A DNA stretch of 64,000 bases from Paraspadella gotoi (GCA_051294375.1 JBJCIZ010000042.1:62001-126000), one strand, 5' to 3'; counted from the first letter of the stretch, positions 5,686 through 64,000 are shown. Notes: generated by a model from the sequence alone, not told the origin. Program-made: numbers and translations.

Positions 5686-5747
5686 ATCCCACCTCTCCAA
5701 AAGAAGAGTCAAGCTTATTCCACTACGAACCACGTAACCCTCAGAAA

Positions 5748-12800: not shown

Positions 12801-12967
12801 TAGAACAATGGAGAATAGATACAGCAACAGCGTAAAAAAAAATCAAAAAACAAAAACACAAAAAAAAAACATTCACTCAAGAAAGTTTTTTTTCAACTAA
12901 AATCTCATCCCTACCAAGCTTCCGACTACCGACTGACCACGTGCGTCTCGCCAGAGGAGGGGGGACG

Positions 12968-21617: not shown

Positions 21618-21845
21618 GAACAAGGAGCATGACCCGGTTACGCGTTTCCATGACAACGCGGCACGGCGCGTGTAGAAAAAATCAACTTGGCCTAGTTTCT
21701 AGTCGGTGAGAACGTGGATGTAAATGGGAGGAAAAATCAAACTTGACCTAGTTGCCTCCACATTACAAGGAACATGACCCGGTTACGCGTTTCCATGACA
21801 GCGCGACACGGCGCGTGTAAAAAAAAAATCAACTTGACCTAGTTG
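21618..21845. repeat. ~80-bp direct repeat pair
   Basis: acaagga.catgacccggttacgcgtttccatgaca...aaatcaacttg.cctagtt at ~21620 and ~21765. Confidence 0.85.
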
Positions 21846-23074
21846 TCTCCGGGCGGGATCGTTACGCGTAAAGCTACGTGTAAAAGAAGTCCAGAGTAAA
21901 CAATGTTCGATCGACTTGACCTAAATGTCACCGTCGTCGCAAGGCGACGAGTAAATTGCAAGGGAAAACGAATTTCGGAGGCCCCGCGTGAAAATGGTTG
22001 ACTTTTGGATGCCTTTAAATTTTGAATGATATTTGAATAATATTTGAGTGACATTTGAATGATATTTGAATGATTGATTACAAATACATGTTGCATGCCC
22101 CGCCGGCTGCGGCAAAATCGGAGGACAGAAGAACGGAAATACGGACGTGGAAGAGGTCGTCAAGAATAATCTTGTGTCGTTGAACGCCATCCTCGCCCGT
22201 TTGGAAGAAGTCAAGCTCCGCCTCAACCAGCTGGAACCGCACGGCGGAAAGCTGCATCAGTTTGAGCTTGAGAGCGCTCTCGCCATTCCCAGGGACGCCC
22301 TCGCCCTCCCGAGGCACTTCGGATTCTGAGCCGCGCCCACTTCCGGGTCCCGCCCTACAATCCCATGACCGACGACGTAGTACATTAGAATGCAGAGAAA
22401 AGGAGGCGGCTGTGCCTCGCAAAAAAATCTTCAAAATAAAAAAAAAACTATTTACGCACCTATATTACGCATGCGCTGGGAGAGAAGAAGGACCTGATTG
22501 AGAAAGGCGGCGCGGCCACGCCCCCTGCCTTCAGCCTCCAATGACCGGGATATATAGGGGATGTATGTAACGCTCCGCACAGGCACTCAGCATCCACTGA
22601 ATAATTGATTTTTTTGCGTATATATATTTTTTTTTTTTTCTCTTTCTCTTATGTTTTTGTTTTTTTTAAGCTTATGATGTTGCTCATATTAATGATGATT
22701 GTGATATTTTTTTTTTCATGATGATACCTATGATGCCCCTGGTGATACTGCTTCCCAGGTTTTGTGATAATTGCGTTGATTCGTCTCAGCTTGCCAATGA
22801 TGTGATCTGACGTTGTCCCGTTTGTGATGATTCCTCCCCCCCCCTTTTTTTTTTTTTTCTCTGATTTGTACTTGACTGTTACTGTTTGATGACTTGTAAT
22901 TGACTTTATTCGTTTGGTTTTAATTATGTGCATGATTGTTAGTTTCCCCCCCATGTTGACACGCTTGCATCACGCTTTCCATGCACTGAGACTCACCTTT
23001 GACCTTCGCACGTGCACGATGCGATCCCATGCCATTCTAGGCACTGGATGCCATCTCGGGCAAAGTATGGGGCG

Positions 23075-23318
23075 CGATGAGGAGGAGGGGTTCAGCCGAA
23101 GGCATCGTCATCCTCCCCTTTCCTCATCCTCTTCTTCTTCGAGCTCGCGGGATTTCGGGGTCCAGGTTTTTAGTTTCGAAAATATTCACTCCACCTTTTT
23201 CCCTCTCTTTAGTCAGACGTACAACTTGTTATTATTTTATTCATCCTTTTCCTCCTTTTCAATAAACGCCTTTTTTCTCTCATTCGAATCTTATTTTGCC
23301 AGAGACATGATTATAGGG
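23075..23318 (+). repeat. Family B LTR (probably a 3' LTR)
   Basis: Matches 55839-56084. Preceded by purine-rich aaagtatgggg plus CG and not followed by the PBS. Confidence 0.85.
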
Positions 23319-23797
23319 CCTCCATACCAGACTATGTAGCTCAGATGCTCAGGCTCAGGCCCTCGAACCCTACGTGCCCGGAATAACCGCCGAAACTCTG
23401 GAGTAGACCCAAATGTTGGAAAGAGGAGAGACGAGACGCCTCGGCAAAGCAATCGAATTCAAATTGCGCGGCTACCTGAAGAAGACGACGGACAACTCCA
23501 TCAGGAAGCTCGTCAAGACTGTCTCAGATGATGACTAAGAGAAGCTCATCAATGCTCTCGTTCAGAAGGGTCAAACAGACAAAGACCCCAGCAGCAGCGC
23601 CACAGCCTTCTACCAAGGGACGGTGCTGGCAGGAGATGAATAACATGAAGCGAGAAGAATCAAGGACTGAAAAGAGATTTGGACAACGCACGACGCCCAA
23701 ATCAACAAGAGCACCGCTTCGAACATCGAGAACGCCGCAGCCCAAACCGTAATTTCGAAAAAAAATATGAGAAGAGCCAGGATTGGAAAAATGAAAT
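23319..23797 (+). mobile_element. Family A gag fragment
   Basis: Matches 6667-7148. Confidence 0.9.
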
Positions 23798-23909
23798 GAA
23801 GGTTAAGACTAGCGAATGTCCGCAACACGTCGGAAAAAAGTCCGCAAAAAAAAAATCTGAAAATAATCTGACGACGTTATAGATTTAATAAAGGGAGAGT
23901 ATCCCTAAT

Positions 23910-44542: not shown

Positions 44543-44927
44543 GGTTTTTAGTTTCAAAAATATTCACTCCACCTTTTTCCCTCTCTTTAGTCAGACGTAC
44601 AACTTATTATTTTATTCGTCCTTTTTCCTCCTTTTCAATAAACGCCTTTTTTCTCTCATTCGAATCTTATTTTGCCAGAGACATGATTATAGGGTGGCGC
44701 CCAATGTGGGACGTCGTCCTTTAACCACGTTTCGCCCCTCTCTTTTTCACCTCTCTTTTTCCTCTCTTTTGCAACACTACTCAAAAAAAAATATATATTT
44801 TTTTTTTCCGTCGTCCGTTCTCGAACGACAGTTTTTTTTCTCTCTCTCTCTCTTTCCAACTGAAAAGCGGAGAAGAAAGGAAGGCAGGGCAGGAAGGCGT
44901 TAACCAATTTTTCCCTCAGGAACGCCA

Positions 44928-45270
44928 AAGGGAAACGACGCTTTCCCCCGGGCTTCTCTGACAGGAGAAGGGCCGCGCAGGACTAAGTGAGAGGGGAAAC
45001 GACGTTTTCCCAGGCCTTCTCTGACAGGAGAAGGGCCGCGCTAAGTGAGAAGGGAAACAACGTTTTCCCTGGCCTTCTCTGACAGGAGAAGGGCCGCGCT
45101 AAGTGAGAAGGGAAACGACATTTTCCCTGGCCTTCTCTGACAGGAGAAGGGCCGCGCTAAGTGAGAAGGGAAACGACGTTTTCCCTGGCCTTCTCTGACA
45201 GGAGTGAAAGAGAAGGGAAAAACGGCGTTTTTTTTTCCTGGACTTCTCTGTCAGGGGAAGGGCCGCGCTG
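44928..45270 (+). repeat. 58-bp tandem double-hairpin repeats in the family B leader
   Basis: Unit agtgagaagggaaacgacgttttccctggccttctctgacaggagaagggccgcgcta, about 5-6 copies; also at 49520-49960 and 56325-56715. Confidence 0.85.
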
Positions 45271-45877
45271 AAAAAAGAGAGAGGTGAGACGCAGGATGGC
45301 GCGATGATTGACGAGTTAAGCCGCCAACAGCTCCGGGAAATATTTGAGTTTTGGCTACTCCACCCGCCAGTAGCGTCAGAGTCGCCGCAGGTGCTGCAGC
45401 ACGCTAGCTTATCGTTTACCGAGATCAATCCAAACGTCCCGCAGAACGCCGCCTATCGCGTAGTCCACGGTTGTCGACGTCTTTCCGGACGGCAGTCGGG
45501 AGGTCGTTCACAGGTTCTCGAACCTAAAGGGGGAGGTATGCGTTGCGACGTGCGGGAGCTCGCCGCCGACATCTCTGTCCGAGCCAAAAGACCTCACGTG
45601 TCCGCCTACGCAGCCGCCGCCGGAAGAGCAGCGTATAGAGAGAGAGTAGGTCCCTTTGTGCCGGCCAGATGCCGAGAACGGAGGCGGTCACCGTCCCCAT
45701 CGAAGTGAAAATCGTCGACGGCCTCCTCTACATTGATCCGCCGCCACAATTCGCCGATGTGATCCGGCCGATGATTATTGACCTTTGACCCGCCCTCCGC
45801 CAGTTTGACGACGCCAAAGCGAAAGCGGATAAATCGGTGGCGTAAGGGAATGACGGAGAAAAGAGATAGAGAAACTA

Positions 45878-46063
45878 ATGGAGGGAAATGATGGGAAAGT
45901 GATTGAAATCCCCACCATCGTCAAAGACGGGAAGCTGATTATCGTGCCGCCCCCTATGTACGCCGCCCTTGGCTTTACCCCGACCGCGGTACCGCTCGCT
46001 AAAGCCGACAAGGAGCCGGTCCCGCCGACGCCGAAAACATCTGAAAAAAAGAGAGAGAATTAA
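45878..46063 (+). CDS. Family B small accessory ORF-B (61 aa)
   Basis: MEGNDGKVIEIPTIVKDGKLIIVPPPMYAALGF...; present in all three copies (57377-57561 with indels); motif shared with ORF-A. Confidence 0.45.
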   Translation: MEGNDGKVIEIPTIVKDGKLIIVPPPMYAALGFTPTAVPLAKADKEPVPPTPKTSEKKREN

Positions 46064-48985
46064 GATCGAGGTCATGAGTACCCAATTTTTCGCGGCCGCC
46101 TTCTCTCTCTTTGTTATTGTTAAAGAAATAGTTTTCGCTTCCTTTTGGTCTCGTCGTTTTTTTTGATTTCTCGTTTCTATCGACTTTAAATTTGGTCGCT
46201 TTCTCCAAAAGGTCGGACCGACCTCCACATTCCGAGACCCGATCGGCCGAAAATTTCTTTCACCGCTTATCTAAACGACCGGTGATTAGAAATCGAGCAT
46301 CGGCGAAAGAGAGAGGGGTCGGGAGAAAGAGAAAGAAAGAAGGAAGGGGGTTAAGAGAAAGAACGAGAATAAGATAACCGACGCCGAAACAAAAGAAATA
46401 AAATTTTAAAAGTCGTTTCAAAAAATTCGGGAATTAGGTGATAAATCGGGCTGATAGCTGTCGAGAAAGGGTTTTCAAACCCGATAAGAATCGAGACAGT
46501 CGGGCCGCCCTCCCGAAGCATTTATTTGAAAGTAATAAAATAAAATAAAAAAATAAGAGAAGGACGTCCGAGGACACGTCGACCTGAAGAAATAAAAGTT
46601 TCCAATTTTCCCCTTCAAAATAAAAGAGGATAAAGACAAAAAAAAAAAAGAAAGAAGGAATTCTGATTATGAAAGAAGGAATTCTGATTATGAAAGAAGG
46701 GAGAAAGGTGGATGGTTTACCTTCAGTGACATGAGTGACGGACCGACCGCTCCCAATTCGCGTGTAGGCGACTGCCAACGCCGGCCGAATTTTCGTGACG
46801 CGGACGGCAACTGGTGGACAACTGAAGAGGCTTATTTGCATACTAGTGACTGTCCCCAGTGTCGCGTCTACTTTTTCTGCCCTATGTGCGGCAGCTTCTC
46901 GCATCCCATCCATNNNNNNNNNNACGCCCAAACAGGAGGTAATAAACATGGCGGAGCCACAGAAGGCGATCACGGCGCCACCGGAAGTGATTCCGGAGAG
47001 CGATAGAGAAAAGGAAGAGACGAGACCGCGCGGCCGCGGCCTTTCACGTGCAGATTCCCTGGATTACAGCTGGCAGACGATGCAATGAGCGCGTTCCCGA
47101 TCACGTGACCCGAGCGCTGATCGAACGCCCCATTCGGAATCAGGGGCGTTGCTCCCACAATTTTCCGTCCGGCGCCAAACGCCGCCCCCCTTCAATTCGG
47201 ACTCATCCGAGGAGGACGAAATAAAATCCGTACGAGAGCGCTTTCAGCTGCTCGATGTGGTGCGGACGGATAATGAAAAACTGCAGCAGGACTTGGCCTC
47301 TGTGGCGTCACAGTCGTCGATGATTCACGGCGAGAACGAGCAATTGAAACGGGCGTTAGATGACGCTGAATCAGAAATGGTCAACTACAAAGACCAGAAT
47401 ACAGATTTAGCGCAGGAAAACGCCGAGCTGCGGGAGGCGCTAGAATTTTTTAAGACTCAGATCCACACCAAAAACGCCCAGGAGGCGTCCGTCGAGCTAA
47501 GGAAGCGTAAAACGGAAGACGACGCCGCGTCAGTGGCCACTTCCGGTTTAACGGAGGCAGATAGCGCGCGACGAATCGATGAAACGGCGTCCTTGCCACA
47601 ATCGACGGCGTTAAGCCGCCCTTTTTCCGACGAGACGCTCAGATGCGTCCGCTCAGCACCGGTTTCACCGCTGAAAAAGAAATCGGCGACGGAGGACGAG
47701 GTTGAGAGATTGAGAGAGATGCTGAAACGCGCCGAGGCCAAAGGAGAAAAATATAGAGAACGATTGAAAGAGGTGAAATCGATGGTCAGCGGCGTTCGAG
47801 GCTTCACGGCGGNNNNNNNNNNNNNNNNNNNNNNNNNNNNNNNNNNNNNNNNNNNNNNNNNNNNNNNNNNNNNNNNNNNNNNNNNNNNNNNNNNNNNNNN
47901 NNNNNNNNNNNNNNNNNNNNNNNNNNNNNNNNNNNNNNNNNNNNNNNNNNNNNNNNNNNNNNNNNNNNNNNNNNNNNNNNNNNNNNNNNNNNNNNNNNNN
48001 NNNNNNNNNNNNNNNNNNNNNNNNNNNNNNNNNNNNNNNNNNNNNNNNNNNNNNNNNNNNNNNNNNNNNNNNNNNNNNNNNNNNNNNNNNNNNNNNNNNN
48101 NNATCCGCCGGAAACGTCGTCAGACGCGTCGCGTTACCTTGATGACATGAAAGCAAAATTTTTTCCACGAAGAGAGCACCACCCGATGTTTACGGATTAT
48201 CTCAAGTCGTTGAGAACGTTTGTCAACCGCTTATAGATAGGGAAGCCAGGTACTCTGGAGGATGAATAAACGAGACTGTGAAAAGAGAATCTTGATTGAA
48301 AGCTTGCAGGGACCCTGCTATGTGCATTAATCTCGTAAGAGTGATGGAGGCCTTAAACCACGCAAAGGCATGGATAAGTTTTATATTGGGTTGTAGCCAA
48401 TTTCATATAGAAAAATGACACAAAGCCAAAAATTTCATTTAACAAATGATAAAGTTCAAAGTTCATACCCATAAACGGGGATAAAAGATTTAATGAAAAT
48501 CGACGTAAGTAAAACACGTTGTGAACCGGGTTTGTTTTCCATATATATACGTATTTAACCCCAATCCTGCGATCCTTAAAGTCTTAGGAACCGCAATTCC
48601 CCGCTTATTCTCTCCACAAAAAATTAGAGAAAAAAAATGTTTTCTCTCGCAAATCACCAATAATCTCTCCAATCGCAGTCGCGAAAGTCCACGAAATTGC
48701 CACTATGGGTCGCAGCCTGCGTCGGGCGCGACGTCTCCGCTGCATAAGGATACCAACGCCGCCAAGAGGGCCGTGGGCGAAGGAAACCGCTCGACCATCG
48801 GAGATCTCTCTCTACTCTTACATCGCGACCAAATCAGAGAACGTTTCCACTCGCCTTCGAAATATTGACGGCGGAAAGGCGTTGACACCGTCAAACACAA
48901 GGTGAACCACCAGCACGAATACAACGAATGTTATTTTCGTCGTTTGATTTTTGGATAATAATTGGAATATATTAGTTTCGAATGA

Positions 48986-51900
48986 CGATGAGGAGGATGG
49001 GGTTCAGCGAAGGCATCGTCATCCTCCCTTTCCTCATGCCTCTTCTCCTTCTAGAGCTCGCGGGTATTTCGGGGTCAGGTTTTTCGTTTTCAGAAATATT
49101 TCACTTCCAGCCTTTTTTTTCTCCTCTTTCTTTAGACAGGACCTACAACTTTTGTTATTTTATTCGTCCTTTTTTTCCCCTTTCAATAAACGCTTTTTCT
49201 CTCATTCGAATATTATTTTTTAAGCCAGATGACAGTGATTATAGGGTGGCTTACGCCCAATTGTTTGTGGGACGTCGCTCCTTTAACCACGTTTTCTCCC
49301 CCTCTTTCTTATTATTCATCCTCGTCTTTGTTATCCTCTCTTTTGGAAGACTTTACTCAAAAAAATAAATAAATATATATTTTTTTTTCCGTCGTCCGTT
49401 CTCGAACGACAAGTTTTTTTTTTCTCTCTCTCTCTCTTTGTCCAACTGCTAAGAGCGGAGAAGAAAGTAGAAGGTCAGGCTTGAGGGCGTGTAACCAAAT
49501 GTTTTTTTCCTAAGGAACGCCAAAGGGAAACGTCCAGCTTTAATCCCTGTGACTTCTCTGCCAAGCAGAAGTGGCCTCAGCTAAGAAAGAGGAGAAGCGG
49601 AAGAGTCGCTTTTCCCTGGACTTCTCCGTCTGTAAATCTACGATTGAAGGGCCCTGCAGATAAGAAAATGTCGGGATAGAGGAGGGAAACGACGTTTTCC
49701 CTGGCCTTCTCTCAGACCAGAGAGAAGTGGTCCGCGCTAAGAGGAGAAGGGAACGACGTTTTTCCCCTGGACTTCCTGCTGTCTTACTATGAGAAGGTGC
49801 CGCGCAAAGAAAAAATAGAAGATTAGTAAGAGGATAACTGATCGTTCTTTCCTGGGATCTTCTCTGACAGGAGAAGTTGGCCGCTCGTAATAGAGTTGAA
49901 AGAGCAAGGGAAAACGGCGTTTTTTTTCCCCTGGAACTTCTCTGTTAGGAGAAGGGCGCCGCTGAAAATAAAGAGAGAGAGGTTGAGACTTGCAGTGATG
50001 GGTCGCGATGATGACGAGTTAAAGCCTGCCCAACTAGCTCGTGGAAATATTTTAGTTTTGGCTACTCTCCACCCGCCAAGTAGCGTCAGAGTCGTCCGCT
50101 AGGTGCTGCACGCACGCTAGCTTTATGCGTTTACCGACGAATCTAATTCAGAAACGTCCGCCGCAGAAGCGCCGCCTATCGCGTAGTCACGCCGTTGTCG
50201 ACGTCCTTCCCGACTGGCCAGTTCGGGTGATTGGTTAGTTTCACAGGTCTCGAACCTAAAGGGCGAGGTACGCCTTGCAACGTGCGGGAAGCTTCGCCGC
50301 CGACGTCTCTGTCTGAGCCAGCGAATGACCTGACCGTGTCCGCCTTCACGCAGAGTCGCCTCGTCCGGATATAATAAGAGCAGCGTATAAGAAAGAGAGA
50401 GGATTATGGTCTTTTGTGCCGGTCCGAATGGGAGCCAGGAACGGGACTAGGCCGTGTCCACCGATTCTTACCCATCGAGTGAGATAATCTTCGACGGCCT
50501 CCTCCTTCTACGTTGATTCCGCCGCCCGCAATTCTGCCGATGTGATCGGCCGAATGATTATTGACTCCTTCGACCCGCTCCTCCGCACAGTTTGATCGAC
50601 GCCAAAAGCGAAACGGACAAATCGACGGTGCGCTTCTCGCAAGGGAGAAATATTGAGGAAGTAAAGAGAGAAGTTTCTCAAAAGCTTCACCTTTGTTTGT
50701 TTAACATTTGCTCTGTAAAGACATAAGAGAAACTAATGGAGGGAAAGGATGGGAAAGTGATTGGAAATCCCCACATCGTCAATAGACGAGGAAGCTGATT
50801 TATCGCTCGGCCGCCCCCTATGTACCCGCCTCTTGGTCTTAATGCCTTCCGACCCGGATGGTACCGCTCGCTACAAGCCGACTAGATCCGGTCGCCGCCG
50901 TCGTGCCGTAAAGCATTCTGATAAAAAAGATCGAGAGAATTAAGTTGAGGTCACGGAGGTACCCCATATTTTCGCGGCTTGCCTTCTCTCTCTTTGATTA
51001 TTGTTACAAGAAATAGTTTTTCGCTTTCCTTTCTGGCCTCGTTATTTTTTGATTCTTCGTTTCTATCGACTTTAGAAATATTATGTCGGCTTTCTCTATA
51101 GAAGAAGTTCGGACTGACCTCCTCATTCCGGACCCGATCGGCCGAAAAATTCTTTCACCGCTTACTCTAACACGACCGGTGCATTAGTAATCGAGCGCAT
51201 CGGCGAAAGAGAGAAGGAGTGTTCGGTGAGAAAGAGAGAAGAAAGAGACAGGGGGTTAAGAGAAAGATAACGAGAATAAGATAACCGACGCCTGACTCAC
51301 AAAAGCGTAAATAAAATATTTAAAGAATTCGTTTCAAAAATTTCGGGAATTAGTTTAAGGTTATAAATCGGGTCTGTAGTGCTGTCGAGAATAGGGTTTT
51401 CAAACCCTGATAAGAAAGTCCAGTACTAAGTCGAAGCGATCTCCGAAGATTTACTAAAGTAATAAATTTTTTTTTAAAAAAAATATAAGGAAAAGACGTC
51501 CGGGGGACACATCGACCTGGAGAAATAAAATTTCCAATTTTCCCCTTTCGAAATAAAAGAGGATAAAGACAAAAAAAAAGATGATAGGAATTCTGATTAT
51601 GAAAGAAAGAAGAAATGGTGGGATGGTTTTACCTCTCAGTGACATGAGTGACGGACCGACCGCTTCCCGACTCGGTGTAGCCGACTGCCAACGCCGGCCG
51701 GAAATTTTCGTGTCCTACGCGGACGGCAACTGGTGGACAATCTGAAAGAGTGCTTAGAGTATTTGCCATGGTCTAACGAATGTCCCCCAGTGCGCGTCTA
51801 TTCTTCTGCCTATGTGCCGGCTGCTTCTCCACCCCATCCAGTGCAGTGTCCGTATCGATAAGACCTACTGCGCGAAGTAGCGGCCTCTGGGGTTCGGATA

Positions 51901-54900
51901 TCGGCGAAGCGGACGCCAATAGGCACAGGGACGGCAGCTTCCGTATGGCTTGATCGAGTCGGACTGCCTCGAGATAGGCGACGCGCCCATCTTTTAAAGT
52001 CCTGGTTTTCGAATTTCGTTTTGAATTTAATTTTTTTTTCTTCTCTCTCTTTTCCCGACGCCCGCGATCTCATTTCTGAGAATTCCCCCGTCCTAGGACT
52101 GTGAAGTAAACAAGAAGAAAAGTAAAAAGAGAGAGAATTTACTTAGTAGTTTTTTTTTAGTTTCGCTTTTTTTTTTTCCGCCTCTTCGGATCTAGATCGA
52201 GAAAACAGGAGAAAGAGGAGAAAAGAGTGAAAATAAGAGGCTAGAAAAGAAAAAAAGAAAAGAGAGAGAAAAAAAAGTGGTGGAAAGTATAGAAAAAGTA
52301 GACGCCGGCAAGAATTGATTTTCAAGCGACGCTTTCGGAGTCCTCTGCGCTCTCCGCTCTTCTCGCCACGCTCCAAAATCAGGAGGGTAATTAACATGGC
52401 TGGAGCCACAGAAGGCGAATCGCTGTACGGCGCACCGGAAGTGATCCGGAGAGCGAGTGAGAGAAAAGTGAAGAGAACGAGAACGAGCGTGGCCAGCGGC
52501 CTTTCACGTGCAGTATCCCCTGGACTACAGCCGGCATTGACGATAGCAACGACGGCGCCGTTCCCTGATCACGTGACCCAGACGCGTCTGATCGAACGCC
52601 CCCATCGGAATCGTGGGCGTCGCTCCCACAATTTTCCGCTACCGGCGCCCAAACGCCGCCCGCCATTCAATTCGGACTCTTTCCGCAGGAGGAGAAATAA
52701 AATCGTACGAGAGCGCGCTTCAAGGCTGCTCGATGTGGTGCGGTCAGCGGATATGAAAAACTGCCAGCAGGACTTGGCCTCTGCGGCGTCACAGTCGTGC
52801 GAATTGATCCACGGCGAAAACAGAGCAACTGAAACGGGCGTTAGATGACGCCGAATCAGGAAATGGTCAACTACAAAGACCAGAATACAGATTAGCGCGT
52901 CGGAAAACGCCGAGCTGCGGGAGGCGCTGGAATTTTTAAGACTCAGATCCACACCAAAAACGCCAGGAGGCGTCCGTCGAGCTAAGGAAGCGTAAACGGA
53001 AGACGACGCCGCGTCAGTGCCACTTCCGTTTAACGGAGGCAGATAGCTAGCGCAGACGAATCGGATGAAACGGCGTCCTTGCCACAATCGACGCGCGGTT
53101 AAGCGCCCTTTTTCCCGACGAGACGCTTCAGATGGCTCCGTCCAGCGCCGGTTTCACACCGCTGAAAAAAGAAATCGCGACGGAGGACGAGGTTGAGAGA
53201 CTGAGAGAGATGCTGAGCTGCGCCGGCGCAAAAGGAGAAAAGTATAGAGAACGATTGAAAGAAGGAAATCGTATGGTCAGCGGCGTTCGAGGCTTCACGG
53301 CGGGGGATAAGCCGCCAGAGAGCGCGCCGGAGACATAGCGATAGAGGCGTCCCGGTTAAGAAGAAAGCATCGAGCATTTCTTTTGCAGGTGGAGATGATC
53401 CGCCGGAAACGTCGTCAGCACGCGTCGCGTTAACTTGACGACATGAAAGCAATAGATTTTTTCTCAAGAGAGAGCACCACCCGACTTTACAGATTATCTC
53501 AAGTCGTTGAGAACGTTTGTCAACGCCTTCCTCATGAGAGGTCTACGGACGCTAACAAGGTGGCGTCGGAGCTCTTCCTGCAGCCTGCACAGTCCGTTAT
53601 AGCTCTGACTTATCTCCATGAGCTGGAGAAGGCTGGACTGGAACTGCCAAGACCCCGACAGTCGCCGAAATATTCAGAGTCACTCGNNNNNNNNNNNNNN
53701 NNNNNNNNNNNAGTCCTCGAGGTCTGTGACTTCGACCACAACAGCTTGAGCAAGAACGCCAGATTTTATCACATGACCCAAAAAGACAGAGAAGACGCAG
53801 CAGATTGGCTGAAGCGTTTGGAAAAATGCTACGATGCCATCTATGCATCAATGGGGGCGTCGGCCCAATACAGCAATCGTCGCCTCCATGAGATAAGAGG
53901 GCGATTCATTGATGGTGGCAAATTTCAGCCTTGGGTGGGTGATAAGCTCCGCCCCTTTCAAAATTTGGCGGACATGGCCTTGACGTGCAGAGACTTGTTA
54001 GAAAAAGAGAAAGATAAGTTGTCAGGGAGAGATGCGCGTCAGCAGCGGCAGCAAGTGCAGCAGTACCGTCCATTCGGGCAATGCCCCCAGCGCCAGTTCC
54101 AGCAGAATCAGCAGCAACAACAGCCGCCGCCATCTCGGCCCCAGCCGGCGCAACATGTCGCATTTGCCGCCTTGGCGCCACCTACGCAGCCGCAGCAGAG
54201 CGCCCCCGCCGCGTTCGGCCAGCCTTATGTCCGCGCAGATGGATCGGTCACGTTCCGCCCAAAGAAAGTGGATCGTCTTCCGGCGCCACGCGATCAGCAA
54301 CGGATGCCGCTGGATGGCGAGCACGCGCCGGACTTTCGAGGCCGCGTCTGTTTGAATTGTCGGCTTATCAACAAACATTTGACGGGCTGCTGCCCATATC
54401 AGGATTACTTGTGTGCTGTTCGCGGAAGAGAACGACCACATCACGAGATATTGCCCGAATGCTGCCGCAGCAGCATCAGCAGCAGCAGCAGCAGCAACCG
54501 CCACACCGGAATTGATGGTCAGCGCGTCCCCGGGGGAGATCATCTTGGCAATTTCGTCGACGCTCTCCCAAAACAGCTGCTGGCCAAAGAAATTTTCCGC
54601 TGGTACATATTTTTAAACAATACTTTAACTGCACGCTTCCACTCTCTCTTCAGATCACACCCTGACGATCCCATTCGAGACCACTCGGGGATCTCTCCGG
54701 GCGGCGCCGTCGTCCGAAGCGCGGCTTCCGCGGGCGACTGTGACATAAACATTTATTGTTAATTGCATTGTCCTTTTCCACACTATGATTATCTATTGAA
54801 TTTTGATGATGTACTGGATTGTTTACATTGCTGAGGCCTCCGAAATAGAAAGCAAGGAAAAGACGCCGCCACGCACTGCGCGTCCGCCGCTCTGACGTCC

Positions 54901-55508
54901 GCCATCCGTTTTCGCCCAACTCCTTCAGATGCGCGCCGAATTCCAGATCTCCTGATTGGCGCGCCGGGCCGACGCAGGAGACGCACGATGACAATCCGCG
55001 CTGTACTAACGGCATCAGCCTAGCAGAGCAGATGGACAATAGTCGGAAAAGAATTGCAAAAACAGCAGTCTTGCTGGCCTATAAGGACCCGACGAAGATC
55101 AAATTCAAGTCACCTTGTCCCACGCGAAAAAAGGGAAAAAAGTATTCGCCGTCCAAATCTCTCCCTAGGGGCAAATCCTGTCGGCACCTCCCCCGGGCGG
55201 GCTCCCCCAGGGGAAAAATCTGAAAAATGTAGAAAATCTTGATTTTTTAGATACTAGCCCCAAAACAGCATGCCTGATAGGCCATTGGCCAGTTATACAG
55301 CCTGATAACAGCCAAAACACTAATATTAAAGCTAATATAAGTAAAAATAATCAAACTACATGGGATTTACAGCTAGGAGAGGAACTAAGGCAAACTCTTT
55401 ATGCGGAACAGGCTGAGGTCACCAGTGCCTTCCTAATAGCTGAAAAAGAGTCTTCTGTATCCCCAACGAAAAGATCAATAACGAGAATGCTGCAGCAATG
55501 GACACCCT
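48986..55508 (+). mobile_element. Gypsy family B copy 2 (LTR to start of pol, very noisy)
   Basis: LTR 48986-49246; collinear with 55839-61927; gag capsid/NC segment 53443-54620. Confidence 0.85.
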
Positions 55509-56084
55509 NNNNNNNNNNNNNNNNNNNNNNNNNNNNNNNNNNNNNNNNNNNNNNNNNNNNNNNNNNNNNNNNNNNNNNNNNNNNNNNNNNNNNNNNNNNN
55601 NNNNNNNNTGGGATCGACAAAAACGACGACGATAATTTGAACGATGCGATTAATTGTTTCAGGGTTTAGGTTAGGCATAAGGTTTTTCCCAGTTTAGGGA
55701 ATAGATATTAGGGATTACGGTAGGGGTAGGGATTCTTCTTAGGGTTGGGATTAGGTTTGGGATTAGGGTCGTTTTTTCCTACGCTACTTTTGCCAACAAT
55801 AAAATTCTGGCTAGCTGCGTGATTCAGCAAAGAGAAAGCGATGAGGAGGAGGGGTTCAGCCGAAGGCATCGTCATCCTCCCCTTTCCTCATCCTCTTCTC
55901 CTTCGAGCTCGCGGGATTTCGGGGTCAGGTTTTTTCGATTTCAGAAAGATATCACTCCACCTTTTTCCCTCTCTTAGACAACCTACAACTTGTTGTTATT
56001 TTATTCGTCCTTTTTTTTCTCCTTTCAATAAACGCCTTTTCTCTCATTCGAATATTATTTTTGCCAGAGACATGATATATAGGG

Positions 56085-56102
56085 TGGCGCCCAATGTGGG
56101 AC
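56085..56102 (+). promoter_or_regulatory. PBS, tRNA-Lys(CUU)
   Basis: TGGCGCCCAATGTGGGAC vs canonical Lys1,2 PBS TGGCGCCCAACGTGGGGC (16/18). Confidence 0.85.
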
Positions 56103-58204
56103 GTCGTCCTTTAACCACGTTTCTCCCCTCTCTTTTTCACCTCTCTTTTTCCTCTCTTTTGGAAGACTACTCAAAAAAAAAAATATATATTTTTTTTCCG
56201 TCCGTCCGTTCTCGAACGACAGGTTTTTTTTTTTTTTCTTCTCTCTCCTCTTTCCAACTGAAGAGCGGAGAAGAAAGGAAGGCAGGGCTGAGGGCGTTAA
56301 CCAATTTTTTTCCTCAGGAACGCCAAAAGGGAAACGTCGTTTTTCCCTGGACTTCTCTGCCAAGAGAAGGGCCTCGCTAAAGAAAGAGAGAAGGGAACGT
56401 CCGCTTTCCCTGGACTTTTCCGTTCGAGAGAAGGGCCCTGCAGAAGAAAAAGTGGAAGAGGAGGGAAACGCGACGTTTTCCCTGGCCTTCCTCAGACAGG
56501 AGAAGGGCCGCGCTAAGAGAGAAGGGAAACGACCGTTTTTTCCTGGACTTCTCTGCCGAGAGAAGGCGCGCGCAAGAAAAAAAAGTAAAGTAAGAAGGGA
56601 AACGACGTTTTTCCCTGGACTTCTCTGACAGGAGAAGGGCCCGCGTTAGAGTGAAAGAGAAGGGAAACGGCGTTTTTTTTCCCCCTGGACTCTCTGTTAG
56701 GAAAGGGCCGCGCTGAAAAAAAGAGAGAGAGGTGAGAGCAGGATGGCGCGATGATTGACGAGGTTAAGCCGCCAACAGCTCCGGGAAATATTTGAGTTTT
56801 GGCTACTCCACCCGCCAGTAGCGTCTCAGAGTCGCCGCAGGGTGCTGCAGCACCGGCTAGCTATCGTTTACCAGAGATCAATCCAAACGTCCCGCAGAAC
56901 GCCGCCTATCGCGTAGTCACGTGTTGTCGACGTCTTCCGGACGGCAGTCGGGAGGTAGTTCACAGGTTCTCGAACCTAAAGGGGGAGGTTACGCGTTGCG
57001 ACGTGCGGGGAGCTCGGCCGCCGACGTCTCGTCTGAGCCGGAAGACCTGACGTGTCCGCCTACGCAGTCGCGCCGAAAGAGCAGCGTTATAGAGAGAGAG
57101 TAGGTCCTTTTGTGCCGGCCGGATGCCGAGAACGGAGGCGGTCACCGTCCCCCATCGAAGTGAGAATCGTCGACGCCTCCTCTACGTTGATCCGCCGCCG
57201 CAATTCGCCGATGTGATCCGGCCGATGATTATTGACCTTCGACCCGCCCTCCGCCAGTTGACGACGCCAAAGCGAAAGCGGACAAATCGGGGGCGTAAGA
57301 GAAAAGAGAGGAAAGAGAGAAGTTTCAAAGCTTCCCTTTTGTTGTTTTACATGCTCTGTAAACATAGAGAAACTTAATGGAGGGAAAGGATGGGAAAGTG
57401 ATTGAAACCCCACCATCGTCAAAGACAGGAAGCTGATTATCGTGCCGCCCCCTATGTACGCCGCCCTTGGCTTTGCCCCGACCGCGGTATCCGCTCGCTA
57501 AAGCGACAAGGATCCGGTCCCGCCGTCGCCGAAAGCATCTGAAAAAAAGAGAGAGAATTAAGATTGAGGTCACGAGTACCCAATTTTTCGCGGCTGCCTT
57601 CTCTCTCTTCTTTATTTGTTAAAGAAATAGTTTTCGCTTCCTTTGCCTCGTTATTTTTTTGATTTCTCGTTTCTATCTCGACTTTAAATTTTGTCGCTTT
57701 CTCTAAAAGGTCGCGACTGACCTCCGCATTCCGAGACCGATCGGCCGAAAATTTCTTCACCGCTTATCTAAACGCACCGGTGATTAGAAATCGAGCATCG
57801 GCGAAAGAGAGAGGGGTCGGAGAAAGAGAGAGAAAGAAGGAAGGGGGTTAAGAGAAAGAACGAGAATAAGATAACCGACGCCGACACAAAGGAAATAAAA
57901 TTTTAAAAGTCGTTTCAAAAATTCGGGAATTAGGTGATAAATCGGGCTGATAGCTGTCGAGAAAGGGTTTTCAAACCCGATAAGAGCCAGACAGTCGGGC
58001 CGATCTCCCGAAGCATTTATCTGAAAGTAATAAATTTTTTTTAAAAAATAAAGGGAAAGACGTCCGGGGACACATCGACCCGGAGAAATAAAAATTTCAA
58101 TTTTCCCTTTCGAAATAAAAGAGGATAAAGACAAAAAAAAAGAATGAAGGAATTCTGATTATGAAAAAAAGAAGAAAGGTGGATGGTTTACCTTCAGTGA
58201 GTCA

Positions 58205-58546
58205 TCAGTAGTGACGGACGACCGGCTCCCGACTCGCGTGTAGCCGACTGCCACGCCGGCCGAATTTTTCGTGACGCGGACGGCAACTGGTGGACAAACT
58301 GAAGAGGCTTATTTGCATGCTAACGAATGTCCCCAGTGTCGCGTCTACTTCTTCTGCCCTATGTGCGGCTGCTTCTCGCACCCCATCCATCAGTGCCGTT
58401 CGAAGACCTACTGCGCGAGAGGGGCCTCTGGGGTTCGGTCTCGGGAGCGGACGCCAATAGGACAGGGACGGCAGCTTCCGGTGACGAGTCGGACGCCTCG
58501 AGATAGCGACCGCGCCACTTTTAGTCGCTTTCGAATTCGTTTTTGA
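58205..58546 (+). CDS. Family B accessory ORF-C, small CCHC zinc-knuckle protein upstream of gag
   Basis: HANECPQCRVYFFCPMCGCFSHPIHQC contains CX2CX4HX4C. Intact N-terminus with ATG in copy 1 (46731). Confidence 0.6.
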
Positions 58547-58887
58547 ATTTAATTTTTTTATTCTCTCTCTCTTTTTCCCGACGCCCGATCTCATTTCTGA
58601 GAATTCCCCCGTTGGCGTGAAGAAACAAGAAGAAAAGTAAAAAGAGAGAGAATTTTACTTACGTACGTTTTTTTATTAGTTTCGCTTTTTTTCCGCCTCT
58701 TCGGATCGAGAGAGAAAGGAGAAAGAGGAGAAAAGAGGAAGAGGAGAAAAGAGAAAAAAAGAAAAGAGAAGAAAAAAAAGTGGAAAAGAAGAAAAGTGAC
58801 GCCCGGCAAGATTGATTTTTTTAGGCGACGCTTTCGAGTCCCCGCGCTCCCGCCTTCTCGCCACGCCCAAACAGGAGGGTAATAAAC

Positions 58888-61020
58888 ATGGCGGAGCCAC
58901 AGAAGGCGATCTGCGGCGCCACCGGAAGTGATCCCGGAGAGCGATAGAGAAAAGGAAGAGACGAGACCGCGTGGCCGCGGCCTTTCACGTGCAGATTCCC
59001 TGGACTACAGCCGGCAGACGATGCAACGAGCGCGTTCCCGATCACGTGACCCGAGCGCTGATCGAACGCCCCATTCGGAATCGTGGGCGTCGCTCCCACA
59101 ATTTTCCGTCCGGCGCCAAACGCCGCCCCCTTCAATTCGGACTCTCCGAGGAGGACGAAATAAAATCCGTACGAGAGCGCCTTCAGCTGCTCGATGTGGT
59201 GCGGACGGATAATGAAAAACTGCAGCAGGACTTGGCCTCTGCGGCGTCACAGTCGTCGATGATCCACGGCGAAAACGAGCAACTGAAACGGGCGTTAGAT
59301 GACGCCGAATCGGAAATGGTCAACTACAAAGACCAGAATACAGATTTAGCGCGGGAAAACGCCGGAGCTGCGGGAGGCGCTGGAATTTTTAAGACTCAGA
59401 TCCACACAAAAACGCCCAGGAGCGTCCGTCGAGCTAAGGAAGCGTAAAACGGAAGACGACGCCGCGTCAGTGGCCACTTCCGGTTTAACGGAGGCAGATA
59501 GCGCGCGGACGAATCGATGAAACGGCGTCCTTGCCACAATCGACGGCGGTTTAAGCGCCCTTTTTCCCGACGAGACGCTTCAGATGGCGTCCGCTCAGCG
59601 CCGGTTTCACCCTGAAAAAGAAATCGGCGACGGAGGACGAGGTTGAGAGACTGAGAGAGATGCTGAAGCGCGCCGAGGCCAAAAGAGAAAAGTATAGAGA
59701 ACGATTGAAAGAAGTGAAATCGATGGTCAGCGGCGTTCGAGGCTTCACGGCGGGGGATAAGCCGCCAGAGACGCGCCGGAGACAAGCGATGAGGCGGCCG
59801 TTAAGAGAAAGCATCGAGCATTTCTTTTTGCAGGTGGAGATGATCCGCCGGAAACGTCGTCAGACGCGTCGCGTTACCTTGACGACATGAAAGCAAAGTT
59901 TTTTCCAAGGAGAGAGCACCACCCGACGTTTACAGATTATCTCAAGTCGTTGAGAACGTTTGTCAACGCCTTCCTCATGAGAGCACGGACGCTAACAAGG
60001 TGGCGTCGGAGCTCTTCCTGCACGCCTCACAGTCCGTGTATAGCTCTGACTTTCTCCATGAGCTGGAGAAGGCTGGACTGGACTGCCAGAACCGACAGTC
60101 GCCGAAATATTCAGAGTCCTCGAGGTCTGTGACTTCGACCACAACAGCTTGACGGAGAAACGCCAGATTTTATCACATGACCAGAAAAGACGGAGAAGAC
60201 GCAGCAGATTGGCTGAAGCGTTTGGAAAAAATGCTATGATGCCATCTATGCATCAATGGGGCGTCGGCCCAATACAGCAATCGTCGCCTCCATGAGATAA
60301 GAGGTCGATTCATTGATGGTGGCAAATTTCAGCCTTGGGTGGGTGATAAGCTACGCCCCTTTCAAAAATTTGGCGGACATGGCCTTGACGTGCAGAGACT
60401 TGTAGAAAAAGAGAAAAGAAAAGTTGTCAGGGAGAGATGCGCGTCAGCAGCGGCAACAAGTGCAGCAATACCGTCCATTCGGGCAACGCCCTCAGCGCCA
60501 GTTCCAGCAGAATCAGCAGCAAACAACAGCCGCCGCCACCTCGGCCCCAGCGGCGCAACATGTCGCATTTGCCGCTGCTCGCCACATACGCAGCCGCAGC
60601 AGAGCGCCCCCGTCGCTTCGGTCAGCCTTATGTCCGCGCAGATGGATCGGTCACGTTCCGCCCAAAGAAAGTGGATCGTCTTCCGGCGCGCGCGCGATCA
60701 GCAACGGATGCCGCTAGATGGCGAGCACGCGCCGGATTTTCGAGGTCGAGTCTGTTTGAATTGTCGGCTCATCAACAAAACATTTGACGGGCTGCTGCCC
60801 ATATCAGGATTACTGTGTGCTGTGCGGGCAAGAGAACGACCACATCACGAGATATTGCCCGAATGTGCCGCAGCAGCAGCAGCAGCAGCAGCAGCAACCG
60901 CCACACCGGAATTGACGGTCAGCGGCGTCCCCGGGGGAGATCATCTTTGGCAATTTCGTCGACGCTCTCCAAAACAGCTGGCCAAAGAAATTTTCCGATG
61001 TACATATTTTAAACAATACT
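58888..61020 (+). pseudogene. Family B gag (coiled coil, capsid, zinc knuckles), frameshifted as assembled
   Basis: MAEPQKA start, coiled coil, FYHMTQK..EDAADWLKRL (major-homology-like), CLNCRLINKH and CAVC..NDHITRYC. Confidence 0.8.
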
Positions 61021-61218
61021 TTAACTGCACGCTTCAACTCTCTCTTCAGATCACACCCTGACGATCCCATTCGAGACCACTTCGGGGATCTCCCGGGCGG
61101 CGCCGTCGTCGAAGCGGCGGCTTCCGCGGCCGACTGTGACATAAACATTTATGTAAATAATGCATTGGTCTTTTCACTAACAATAAATATTGCTGATGAT
61201 GTTTCTATTGATTTGATG

Positions 61219-61532
61219 AATGTACTGGATTGTTTACATTGCGTGAGGCCTCCGAAATAGAAAGCCAAGGAAAAGACGCCGCCACGCCCACCATGTGCGT
61301 CGCCGTTGACGTCCCGCCATGTTTCGCCCAACTCCTTCAGATGCGCGCCGAATTGCGAGATCTCCTGATTGGCGCCGCGCGCGACGAGGAGACGCAGATG
61401 ACAATCCGCGCTGTACTAAACGGCATCAGCCTAGAGAGCAGATGGACAATAGTCGGGAACAGAATTGCAAAAACAGCAGTCTTGCTGGCCTTAAGGGACC
61501 CGACGAAGATCAAATTCAAGTCACTCACTTGA
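61219..61532 (+). CDS. Family B ORF-D (~100 aa) between gag and pol
   Basis: Open frame ...CVAVDVPPCFAQLLQMRAELRDLL...AVLLALRDPTKIKFKS; homologue at ~54809-55120. Confidence 0.4.
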
Positions 61533-61777
61533 TCCCACGCGAAAAAAGGGAAAAAGTATTGCGCCGTCCGAATCAGTCTCCCCTAGGGCAAAATCTGGGG
61601 CACTCCCCCGGGCGGGCTCCCCCAGGGGAAAAATCTGAAAAATATGAAATCTTGATTTTTTGGATACTAGCCCAAAACAGCATGCCTGATAGGCCATTGC
61701 GCAGTTATACAGCCTGATAACAGCCAAAACACGAATATTAAGGCTAATATAAGTGAAAATAATCAAACACATCATAC

Positions 61778-64000
61778 ATGGAGACTTTACAGGACTAGAG
61801 AGGACAACTGAGAAAACTCATGTATGGCGAACAGCGTGAGTCACCAGTGCCTTCCTCATAGCTGAAAAAGAGTCTTCTGTATCCCCAACAAAAAGATCAA
61901 TAACGAAAATGTGCAGCAATGACACCCTCACCACTTAATAAATCTGGTACTGTGTCATTCCAGCAAGTGCTAAATACAGAGCAAAAGTCAGAAGGCCAAA
62001 TGCCTCTATTTGTAGGCATTTTCCCCAACAACAGAATAGTGAAAATGGCCATTGATACAGGAGCAACTTCGTCTATTATATCAGGGACAATGGCAAAAAG
62101 ATTATCTGCAGCAATAACTCCGGGAGTTACCTCATCAATTAGGACTGCTAATGGGATGGTCCATTCAAACAGGCGGGCTACTGCTCTGGTAGACCTGATT
62201 GTCGTGAAGGTAGTGATAACCTTTATGATTATCGATGGTTCTAATTATCCTCAGGACTTTATCCTGATAGGGAATTCGTTCCTAGATACCTACAACTTTA
62301 CCCTGGATAAACATTACCTCACACTGACTAAAAATGTGCGTATTCCACTCATGTATGGGTCTGGGAATGCAGAGAATCATGTTAACTATCTGGAGCTTGC
62401 TACACTTCAGTCAGTGGAGACCAAATCATCCTGAGCGATGAAGAAATGCTTAAGCCAAGGCAGAGCATACTGGTCCAGGTTTATACAGGCGCGAAGCGTG
62501 GTATGCGCTTTACTAACACCAGCCGCCATTTTGAAAATGGTATATAAGGACGTCCCTGGAGTCTACGCCCTGGACCTGCTGATCAATGAAAGGCATGATT
62601 ATTACAAGAACCCCTTTGGTCTTGGTCCTTCGGAATGATACCCCGGATACAGTCATTCTCCCAGCAGGACTGGTAGTTGGGTAACATAAAACCGGTCGTG
62701 GACAAACAGCTGAAGATGAGCTTTCTGCATGTCCTTTAGCGCAGGTAGCATCATTCCCTATGGAAGAACTTCGGGAAAACGTTCCCACACCTACCTGGTT
62801 ACCAGTGGAGAGAAAGAAGAAGGGAAATCAGTTCTTCGGACGAAGATGAGGATAAGACCCATGATGAGGTGAGCCAGCGCCTGATTGGTTGTTAAGAAAT
62901 TGACCAAATGAGTGATCAAGACCATAAAGAAGTACCCAAGGTCTCGAAAGTAACATCAATCATTACCAGAAATGATAAAAAGCAGAGAAGACATAGAGGC
63001 AGCTATAGAAAAGGTACAGAATGACATGCGGCAATATTGGATGGAAAGGGAAACAAGCTTTCCTGGAGAAAGTGGCGTGGGAAATCGGCTAACGGAAGCG
63101 CAAAGAAAAAGGTGCGAAGACCTTTCTTGGGAATACCGCTGTATTTTTGCAGCAAATTTCCAGCACTCTGAGGCAGGAATCCGGGATTACGCTATTTGAC
63201 ATAGCATACGATGAAGAGCTAGTAGAAGCAGTAGCGCCTAGGCCAACAGGGATCTTTCAGAAGGAGCTTTTGTCACGCTACATAGACATTTTGCTAAGAG
63301 CTAATGTTCTAGAACCATCACGATATTCCTCTGTCGCCAATGCCTTTGTTATAGAGAAAAAGAATTGCAAAATTCGCTCTATAGATCAATTAAGGGCAGC
63401 TACTGATGAGGATGTCGCGGCTAATTTCCGACTAGTGGCCGACCAAGCCCACCTCAGCAAAGCCATGAAGCCTTCTCTTAACTACTTGGTCAGTATGAGG
63501 GAGATGATGATTTTCATGGAAAAAGACTGCTACTTTACTACGCTTGATTTCAGTAACTTTTTATTAATATACCCTTGTCAGTGAACTGCAGAGGAATAAT
63601 GGCCATATACGGCGCAGATATGAAATCATACAACTTCCAGAGGGCTACTATGGGGCAGCACCATCTTTCCCACGGCATCGCGAGTTGTGTGGAACTCACC
63701 TTCCGTGACATTTGCATTCTGTGATCCTGTAATACCCGACCTATACCTGTCCTATGCTGATAATTTTTCACCTATAAGCCCATAGGTGGACGAAAGCATA
63801 AGCAGTACAGGATTTTCTTGGAAAGATGCAAACATCAGAACCTGCTGCTAAAGCCAGGGGAAGTCTGCGTCGCAATGAATGTGGAAGAAAAGGACAACGC
63901 CTTCCAGTTTCTCGGCTACGAATTCAGAGAAGGGAAAATTTTCCCAGGCAAGAAAAAAGATCTCGTATTATTCTTCGAGACCGCTCCCTTTCTAGCCGTA
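61778..64000 (+). pseudogene. Family B pol (protease and RT), frameshifted as assembled
   Basis: MAIDTGATSS and ILIGNSFL protease motifs; RT FRLVAD, YFTTLDF, YADN, FQFLGY. Confidence 0.88.

What the first reader, a model, noticed from the sequence alone, without database searches (positions are those of the whole stretch)
55839..64000. Gypsy family B has a complex-retrovirus-like multi-ORF genome
Seen: gag starts ~2.8 kb after the PBS. Between them lie a hairpin-array leader and three small sense ORFs (A, B, C), and a fourth (D) separates gag from a pol with its own ATG. The order is the same in all three copies, and copies 1 and 3 differ by real substitutions (HTSDC vs HANEC). Established: most Ty3/gypsy elements have only gag, pol and sometimes one extra ORF. 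Inference: a lineage with several accessory proteins, possibly expressed by splicing from the AG|GTGAG donor-like site (45284, 56732) to acceptors before ORF-C (ccttcag|tgacATG) and gag (aaacag).
Basis: partly seen in the sequence, partly recalled or inferred. Interest (0 to 1): 0.8.

Follow-up and report, generated by a model that had tools for sequence, protein, structure and literature searches.

The report
Retrotransposon with four genes before gag
A Ty3/gypsy jumping gene, likely from an arrow worm, carries four small reading frames ahead of its capsid gene that likely encode accessory proteins; fruit-fly elements with two such genes are already known, and this one would stand out only if, as predicted but untested, it releases them operon-style through the host's spliced-leader machinery.

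Summary
Partly confirmed. The element is a Ty3/gypsy LTR retrotransposon; gag starts 2,803 nt after the PBS. There are four small sense ORFs before gag (A, B, B', C), not three. B and B' are old paralogues. A, B and B' have gag-like codon periodicity, and indels between variants avoid the ORFs. Against: dN/dS between copies 1 and 3 is 0.82 (gag 0.27), so selection is not shown, and no homologues were found. 'ORF D' is likely not a separate gene: it matches the N-terminal extension of related Pol proteins, and copy 2 reads open into the protease register, so the 'own ATG' of pol at 61919 is likely an assembly error. The proposed splice donor is lost in many variants, and no GT-AG joint was seen. 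Likely mechanism (inferred): early poly(A) after B' plus spliced-leader trans-splicing at AGs just before the ATGs. The host is likely an arrow worm (earlier scan notes; untested here). The layout has a precedent in Drosophila MDG1-group elements (two sORFs before gag), but no ORF here resembles their fusogen. The RT has a clade-wide xADN motif. The scan's notes showed no look-alike elsewhere. New variant of a known kind; interest 0.45.

The parts
55838..56084 (+). 5' LTR of copy 3 (~247 nt); AATAAA at 56027; ends are not TG...CA (begins GCGATG, ends TATAGGG)
   Evidence: (loose ends)
56085..56102 (+). Primer-binding site, tRNA-Lys-like (assignment recalled from retroviral Lys PBSs, not tested against a host tRNA)
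56327..56714 (+). Leader array of ~58-70-nt units, each two short hairpins; copy 1 equivalent 44928-45269; unit number varies between variants
56751..57103 (+). ORF A in copy 3 (broken by indels); ~115 codons, acidic, no membrane helix
45304..45649 (+). ORF A in copy 1; one frame break near 45465, at a place where all four laid runs differ from the window
57123..57298 (+). ORF B in copy 3 (broken by indels); ~58 codons; paralogue of B'
45669..45845 (+). ORF B in copy 1; carries a nonsense codon at 45786 that X1 contigs share
57377..57561 (+).
45878..46063 (+). ORF B' in copy 1, open
57894..58119 (+). Cluster of five AATAAA in the B'-C spacer (six in copy 1, 46397-46624); candidate early poly(A) site
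58205..58510 (+). ORF C in copy 3 (start garbled, broken by indels); Cys/His cluster H-x3-C-x2-C-x5-C-x2-C-x4-H-x2-H; ~100 codons estimated
46731..46913 (+). ORF C in copy 1, first 61 codons, open up to an assembly gap; CAG acceptor-like site 4 nt before the ATG
58888..60915 (+). gag (coiled-coil N-part, two C-x2-C-x5-H-x4-C knuckles, Gln-rich tail, TGA at 60913); copy 1 start 46948; CAG acceptor-like site at 58874
60916..61918 (+).
61952..62392 (+). Aspartic protease domain (DTGA)
   Evidence: (PF13975, E 1.7e-11)
62984..64000 (+). Reverse transcriptase, runs off the window; catalytic motif YADN at 63753-63764
23073..23318 (+). Further LTR of this family, 96% like copy 1; possibly copy 1's 3' LTR displaced by the assembly

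Best explanation
This is a Ty3/gypsy LTR retrotransposon, likely of an arrow worm, with four small sense reading frames (A, B, B', C) between its primer site and gag that likely encode soluble accessory proteins, and a pol that likely begins right after the gag stop and includes the stretch called ORF D. Predicted expression, not shown: one transcript from the 5' LTR. Part of it would end at the AATAAA cluster after B', giving a short A-B-B' message, as MDG1 elements do after sORF1. The host's spliced-leader trans-splicing would cap downstream parts at the YAG sites just before the ATGs of C and gag (and perhaps A and B'), as in chaetognath operons. Full-length RNA that escapes both steps would be packaged and primed by a tRNA-Lys. 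The hairpin array likely acts in packaging or dimerisation, or in protecting the unprocessed RNA. C likely binds zinc and regulates RNA processing or transcription. B and B' are a duplicated small module, likely protein-binding. Gag-Pol is made by recoding at the gag stop; which kind cannot be told, because the two copies disagree by one-base indels there. Shown: layout, paralogy, codon periodicity, D-pol homology. Inferred: translation, functions, processing route, host.
For: Coding signal: base-by-codon-position chi2 p = 0.001 (A), 1.6e-4 (B), 1.7e-4 (B'), 0.043 (C), against 0.26 (spacer) and 0.63 (leader); profiles of A1, A2, B and B' correlate with gag's in the assigned frame, r 0.62-0.87. 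Stop-free shuffles reach the observed value in 1, 0, 59, 275 and 100 of 2000 for B, B', A1, A2 and C. B vs B': local score reached by 22 of 20,000 shuffles; best non-self hit among 2,040 six-frame pieces; 5 of 10 identical residues use different codons. Indels avoid the ORFs: among X6 pieces listed, 1 gap and 30 substitutions in ORF pieces against 12 gaps and 7 substitutions in non-coding pieces (p 4e-6), and a 15-to-61-nt replacement falls exactly between B and B'. D: piece 61212-61529 is the top hit (E 0.0046, 1 of 2,038 pieces) of a profile of the pre-protease part of P0001/P0013; shuffles 1 and 0 of 3,000. Copy 2 is open for 113 codons into the protease register, with 5 synonymous and 2 replacement changes in that frame once adjacent-base swaps are set aside. 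Processing signals: AATAAA 6 (copy 1) and 5 (copy 3) in the B'-C spacer against 0.8-1.0 expected (1 and 0 of 2,000 dinucleotide shuffles); a YAG within 13 nt before 5 of 5 ATGs in copy 1, against 24% of positions and 9 of 25 other ATGs. Chaetognaths trans-splice about half their genes, with 18% in operons, and methylate LTR elements (PMC12460157); copy 1 shows CpG decay, 17 vs 3 in coding parts. C. elegans Cer1 has an SL1-spliced subgenomic mRNA (PMC3315495).
Against: dN/dS, copy 1 vs 3: small ORFs 9 synonymous and 20 replacement or nonsense changes in 274 codons (omega 0.82, p 0.38); A 0.32 (p 0.08), B 0.75, B' 0 of 6 synonymous, C 1.0; gag 0.27 (p 0.007) in the same comparison. C's codon profile does not follow gag's (r -0.18). 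The AG next to B's ATG exists only in the copy-1 allele (45667 differs in X6, X7 and X8), so only 4 of 5 acceptors are general; the 13-nt window was chosen after looking; A and C lack a long pyrimidine tract. The non-coding pieces are homopolymer-rich, which inflates the indel contrast, and only 32 of 348 pieces were listed. The first half of D shows no significant similarity to relatives. The host was not tested here. No spliced-leader sequence was seen among the listed loose ends (24 of 44).
Confidence: 0.42

Rival explanations
1. Same four accessory proteins, but made MDG1-style: from unspliced RNA and a short early-polyadenylated RNA, by leaky scanning and reinitiation (A, B and B' are only about 20-80 nt apart), with no trans-splicing.
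For: MDG1-group elements have two sORFs before gag, unspliced ~7-kb RNA and a short RNA ending after sORF1, with both sORFs detected by proteomics (PMC11952523). WDSV Orf C is presumed to be read from full-length RNA (PMC3185748). The AATAAA cluster fits. ATG contexts of A and B are weak.
Against: gag lies behind 18 upstream ATGs in copy 1, not counting its assembly gap, and 2.8 kb of leader, which is hard to scan. YAG sites sit just before the ATGs.
Confidence: 0.28
2. One reading: cis-splicing from a leader donor to acceptors before C and gag, as in complex retroviruses.
For: Good acceptor-like sites before B' (copy-3 allele), C and gag; several GT donor-like sites exist.
Against: The named donor's T is replaced at full depth in X1, X6 and X8 and partly in X7 and X3. 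The only long joint in X1 (45666 to 46955) is not GT-AG.
Confidence: 0.13
3. The small ORFs are remains of once-coding sequence, or GC-rich structural RNA, and are no longer under selection; the element is an ordinary gag-pol gypsy with a long leader.
For: Pooled omega 0.82, and B' has 6 replacement and 0 synonymous changes. An X1/X2 variant lacks B to C altogether, and X6/X8 variants skip 45718-46012.
Against: Codon periodicity, B/B' protein-level paralogy, and lack of indels inside the ORFs across samples. Copy 1 is a dead, CpG-decayed copy, which dilutes dN/dS.
Confidence: 0.17

Closest known systems
Drosophila MDG1-group Ty3/gypsy elements (412, mdg1, Stalker, Blood, Tabor); PMC11952523, passages read
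   Same: Animal Ty3/gypsy element with small sense accessory ORFs between the 5' LTR and gag; ORF sizes alike (~110 and ~70 aa); a poly(A) site inside the sORF region.
   Different: Four ORFs, not two. None has a membrane helix (best 19-residue hydropathy 1.35 or less) or an MG myristoylation start, so none is an sORF2/FAST-like fusogen. It has a duplicated pair, a Cys/His ORF, a hairpin array and an xADN RT.
[quoted passage not shown]
   Same: Accessory ORF 5' of gag.
   Different: One ORF, 7 nt before gag, in a true retrovirus. Here the RT profile is closest to Ty3 (124 bits) and far from foamy virus (52) and other retroviral RTs (about 20).
Plant Tat/Ogre elements (PMC4408406) and planarian Burro (PMC6431247); passages read
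   Same: Ty3/gypsy elements with extra ORFs, some upstream of gag.
   Different: There the extra ORFs are one or two, large, with PMD, Tr28 or MATH domains. Here they are four, 58-115 codons, with no Pfam match.
C. elegans Cer1 (PMC3315495, passages) and Oikopleura Tor (PMC4402516, part 1 of 6 and passages)
   Same: Gypsy elements in trans-splicing hosts; Cer1 makes an SL1-spliced subgenomic mRNA while its full-length RNA skips the site.
   Different: Cer1 has one SL site and, in the passages read, no cluster of upstream genes. Tor uses cis-splicing or an internal promoter for env.
Unnamed ENA proteins P0001, P0013, P0002, P0003
   Same: Closest sequences: RT 34-44% identical, same insertion in the RT fingers, xADN motif in the three that cover it; P0001 and P0013 share the pre-protease extension; family B groups with P0001+P0013 at 85/84.
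   Different: No DNA context could be fetched, so it is unknown whether they have upstream ORFs.

Membership tests
Ty3/gypsy (Metaviridae) | Direct LTRs with an adjacent tRNA PBS | tested here: met
   LTR at 55838-56084 and 23073-23318, PBS at 56085; the 3' LTR of copy 3 lies outside the window
Ty3/gypsy (Metaviridae) | gag then pol in the order PR-RT-RH-IN | tested here: met
   PR then RT in the window; RH and IN follow RT in relatives P0002 and P0013
Ty3/gypsy (Metaviridae) | RT closer to Ty3 than to other RT classes | tested here: met
   Profile of relatives (A1): Ty3 124 bits, 8r0s enzymatic polyprotein 97.5, foamy 52
Ty3/gypsy (Metaviridae) | Canonical YxDD motif (usual feature) | tested here: not met
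   YADN here; HADN in P0001 and P0013, LADN in P0002; YVDD in P0011
Ty3/gypsy (Metaviridae) | TG...CA termini and target-site duplication (usual features) | tested here: inconclusive
   LTR appears to run GCGATG...TATAGGG; no full insertion with both flanks is in the window
MDG1 group | sORFs between the LTR and gag | tested here: met
   Four rather than two
MDG1 group | sORF2 with membrane helix, polybasic region and N-myristoylation motif | tested here: not met
MDG1 group | RT groups with 412/mdg1 | not testable with these tools
   No named reference RTs were returned; the tree holds unnamed rows, one plant record and two window pieces
Complex retrovirus (Retroviridae) | Retroviral RT clade | tested here: not met
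Complex retrovirus (Retroviridae) | env downstream of pol | not testable with these tools
   The window ends in RT; no genome is held
Complex retrovirus (Retroviridae) | Accessory mRNAs by cis-splicing from a major donor | tested here: inconclusive
   Donor polymorphic, no GT-AG joint listed, but no run is on record as RNA
SL-resolved operon | Spliced leader on downstream cistrons | not testable with these tools
   Only contigs, none recorded as RNA; sequence signals only
Plant Tat/Ogre | Additional archaeal-type RNase H; PMD or Tr28 extra ORF | not tested
   RH lies outside the window; no Pfam match for the small ORFs

The most novel reading that the evidence does not exclude
An animal LTR retrotransposon built as its own operon: four accessory genes plus gag-pol on one transcript, cut into separate mRNAs by early polyadenylation and the host's spliced-leader trans-splicing, with a zinc-binding accessory protein and a leader hairpin array acting as a Rev/RRE-like switch that spares full-length RNA, and copied by an RT clade that naturally lacks the second catalytic aspartate (xADN).
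Probability: 0.25. Interest if true: 0.78.

Novelty: new variant of a known kind. Interest (0 to 1): 0.45.

Why it matters
Accessory genes of env-less retrotransposons can change their biology: the MDG1 sORF2 is proposed to be a cell-fusion factor (PMC11952523). Four unrelated small ORFs in a distant RT clade point to an independent origin of a complex-retrovirus-like layout. If the element uses trans-splicing to express them, it shows how a transposon adapts to an operon-using host while keeping its genomic RNA whole. Separately, a natural xADN RT clade bears on why the Ty1 D211N mutant polymerises but cannot transpose (PMC2148107, abstract).

Tried and rejected
No whole genome is held, so copy number and the 3' end could not be read. 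No RNA holder is listed; X1 is guessed as RNA but not shown to be, and X1 and X2 look like one data set, so neither says anything on expression. Homologue searches: RT piece by word index, none; B/B' alignment, none; Pfam for the small ORFs, none significant; ESM Atlas for C and B', only unnamed clusters under 0.9; ORF A was not searched in the Atlas. Related loci: none in viral contigs or metagenome contigs. Folds: the pol N-extension of P0013 (pLDDT 55) and ORF C (pLDDT 48) gave no match above Z 3.1, so an OTU-like reading of the first half of D, suggested by eye from a recalled motif, is unsupported and not excluded. Rfam: nothing above chance in 44500-47000. The LTR and the B'-C spacer fold no better than shuffles (z 0.65 and -0.74). 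No stable stem after the gag stop (z -0.15 and -1.65). Antisense ORFs over the leader are not shared at the same length between copies. The second gag segment (47639-47811) was set in the wrong frame and is not used for dN/dS. Paper searches for the same layout in this clade or host, or for the motif, found the MDG1, Tat/Ogre, Burro, WDSV and Cer1 precedents but no description of this element. No supplements were read, and Repbase-type records are not searchable here. The scan's notes held nothing nearby or alike by sequence.
Full report
Setting. The window is a nest of LTR elements in a gap-filled, partly unpolished assembly. Family B occurs three times: copy 1 (44542-48227, starts inside the LTR, ends in gag), copy 2 (48986-55508, ends before the protease) and copy 3 (55839-64000, runs off in RT), with one more LTR at 23073-23318. 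Copies 2 and 3 carry many one-base indels (28 gaps in a 2,183-nt contig laid on copy 3). The first part of copy 2 agrees with copy 3 at 74 of 96 sites where copies 1 and 3 differ, so it is not independent. Copy 1 is accurate: four listed X1 contigs match it with no difference. It is also dead, with TGA codons in B and gag where the other copies have CGA, and CpG decay of 17 against 3 in coding parts. The family is held by 9 runs of one organism from 3 studies. Earlier scan notes on this genome call the host an arrow worm; I found no host gene in the window to test that.

What the element is. A 247-nt LTR is followed directly by a PBS of tRNA-Lys type (type recalled), a leader with a two-hairpin ~58-nt array (z -5.0), and gag 2,803 nt after the PBS. 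The protease matches PF13975. The RT found 4 relatives among 1.84 billion representatives, all unnamed ENA proteins, 29-41% identical. A profile of four of these and their cluster members hits Ty3 best in the PDB, and P0002 shows RT-RH-IN. Family B groups with P0001 and P0013 at 85/84 in a tree of 13 rows, in which the family B piece fills 42% of columns. The catalytic motif is YADN here and xADN in P0001, P0013 and P0002, so it is a clade feature, not an error.

The upstream ORFs. In copy 1 there are four: A (45304-45649, one break near 45465 where all four laid runs differ from the window), B (45669-45845), B' (45878-46063) and C (46731 to the gap). They are GC-rich islands between A-rich spacers. 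For coding: periodicity p = 0.001, 1.6e-4, 1.7e-4 and 0.043, against 0.26 and 0.63 for spacer and leader; stop-free shuffle controls of 59, 275, 1, 0 and 100 of 2,000 for A1, A2, B, B' and C. B and B' are paralogues at protein level (22 of 20,000 shuffles; nucleotide identity 17, 15 and 11 of 33 at codon positions 1-3). Indels between variants fall outside the ORFs (1 gap and 30 substitutions against 12 and 7 in the listed X6 pieces; 32 of 348 pieces were listed, and the non-coding parts are homopolymer-rich). Against: dN/dS between copies 1 and 3 is 0.82 for the pooled ORFs (9 synonymous, 20 other, 274 codons) while gag gives 0.27; only A leans to purifying selection (0.32, p 0.08), and B' has 6 replacements and no silent change. 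C has the weakest signal but keeps a Cys/His cluster in both alleles. I put A, B and B' at about 80% coding in origin and C at about 65%. None has a membrane helix or an MG start.

ORF D and the start of pol. The piece 61212-61529 is the top hit of a profile of the pre-protease region of P0001/P0013 among 2,038 six-frame pieces (E 0.0046; 1 and 0 of 3,000 shuffles), and in those proteins that region is in one frame with the protease. Copy 2 has a 113-codon open frame (55169-55507) that ends in the protease register and passes the place of copy 3's ATG without using it; changes between the copies are mostly silent in that frame (5 of 7), and an X3 contig end agrees with copy 2 at that place. 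So D is likely pol, and the ATG at 61919 is likely an artefact. The first half of D (60916-61254) gave no significant similarity. How pol is entered is open: copy 3 has TGA-CGG, the type II readthrough context (PMC3159437, passages), in frame with what follows; copy 2 has an ATG overlapping the stop; the copies differ by single-base indels just after it.

Expression. None of the listed joints is GT-AG; the long X1 joint (45666 to 46955) looks like a deletion variant. These are contigs not recorded as RNA, so this does not exclude splicing. Two signals stand out. AATAAA is clustered only in the B'-C spacer (6 and 5, against 0.8-1.0 expected), the last one about 100 nt before C's acceptor in copy 1. 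A YAG lies within 13 nt before all five ATGs in copy 1, four of five in the commoner allele. In a host where about half the genes are trans-spliced and 18% lie in operons (PMC12460157, passages and section 19), this reads most simply as an operon-like layout; Cer1 shows that a gypsy element can use SL for a subgenomic RNA while its full-length RNA escapes (PMC3315495, passages). I give this 0.42, MDG1-style scanning plus early poly(A) 0.28, decayed ORFs 0.17 and cis-splicing 0.13.

Comparison. Small ORFs upstream of gag are known in animal gypsy elements: the Drosophila MDG1 group has two, translated, on unspliced RNA, with an early poly(A) site (PMC11952523, 12 of 19 passages). Plant Tat/Ogre, planarian Burro and WDSV orf C are further cases (PMC4408406, PMC6431247, PMC3185748; passages). 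Rotifer elements carry extra ORFs downstream of pol (PMC5408684, part 2 of 5). The chaetognath papers read (PMC2678813 part 2 of 6, PMC2997562 passages, PMC2566580 passages) list gypsy elements without such ORFs in the parts seen. PMC13524379 and PMC10886601 (passages) had no hit for 'chaetognath'. PMC2148107 was seen as abstract and outline. The element works like an MDG1-type element with accessory sORFs but fails the sORF2 test and is not a retrovirus.

Verdict. A real, moderately unusual element: a new variant of a known kind. The headline is trimmed (no ORF D, no separate pol start at 61919, precedent exists) and extended (a fourth upstream ORF, a duplicated pair, a poly(A) cluster, an xADN RT). 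Interest 0.45; 0.78 if the SL-operon reading holds (probability 0.25).

Noticed in passing
63753-63764; P0001, P0013, P0002: RT motif YADN/HADN/LADN instead of YxDD in a whole clade with long open pol frames; the equivalent Ty1 D211N change blocks transposition (PMC2148107, abstract). A 'YADN' paper search found nothing relevant.
   Followed up: partly
5316-13300 (family A) and 55838-56084 (family B): Neither family has TG...CA ends. Family A appears to run CAT...ATG with a 4-bp GTAG duplication and a tRNA-Leu-like PBS (type recalled); family B ends in TATAGGG, a TATA-like motif directly before the PBS.
   Followed up: partly
46935-46947 and 58874-58887; 45281-45288: AGGAGG(T) lies 7-8 nt before the gag ATG and GAGGTGA before ORF A: Shine-Dalgarno-like, 7-letter matches occur at 16 of 2,140 positions. 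Probably a by-product of AG-rich sequence.
   Followed up: partly
44008-44541 / 44542 and 23313-23800: Copy 1's left flank and the right flank of the LTR at 23073 are successive parts of family A (5969-6497 and 6661-7152), so they may be two ends of one nested insertion scrambled by the assembly; 21200-23072 might then be the element's 3' region.
   Followed up: partly
22078-22329 +: 83-codon open stretch without ATG, coiled-coil-like, upstream of the LTR at 23073; a TATA-like box follows near 22551.
   Followed up: no
P0001/P0013 residues 1-110; window 60916-61254: The start of pol resembles the second half of an OTU domain by eye (motif recalled); the fold prediction was too weak to test it.
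   Followed up: partly
45666-46955, 45685, 45718-46012: Variants in other runs delete B to C, join B to the end of B', or carry different sequence before B: the accessory region is modular within the family.
   Followed up: no
60745-60860: Both gag knuckles have the spacing C-x2-C-x5-H-x4-C rather than C-x2-C-x4-H-x4-C.
   Followed up: no
55660-55770: TTAGGG-like repeats just upstream of copy 3, similar to 2939-3121.
   Followed up: no
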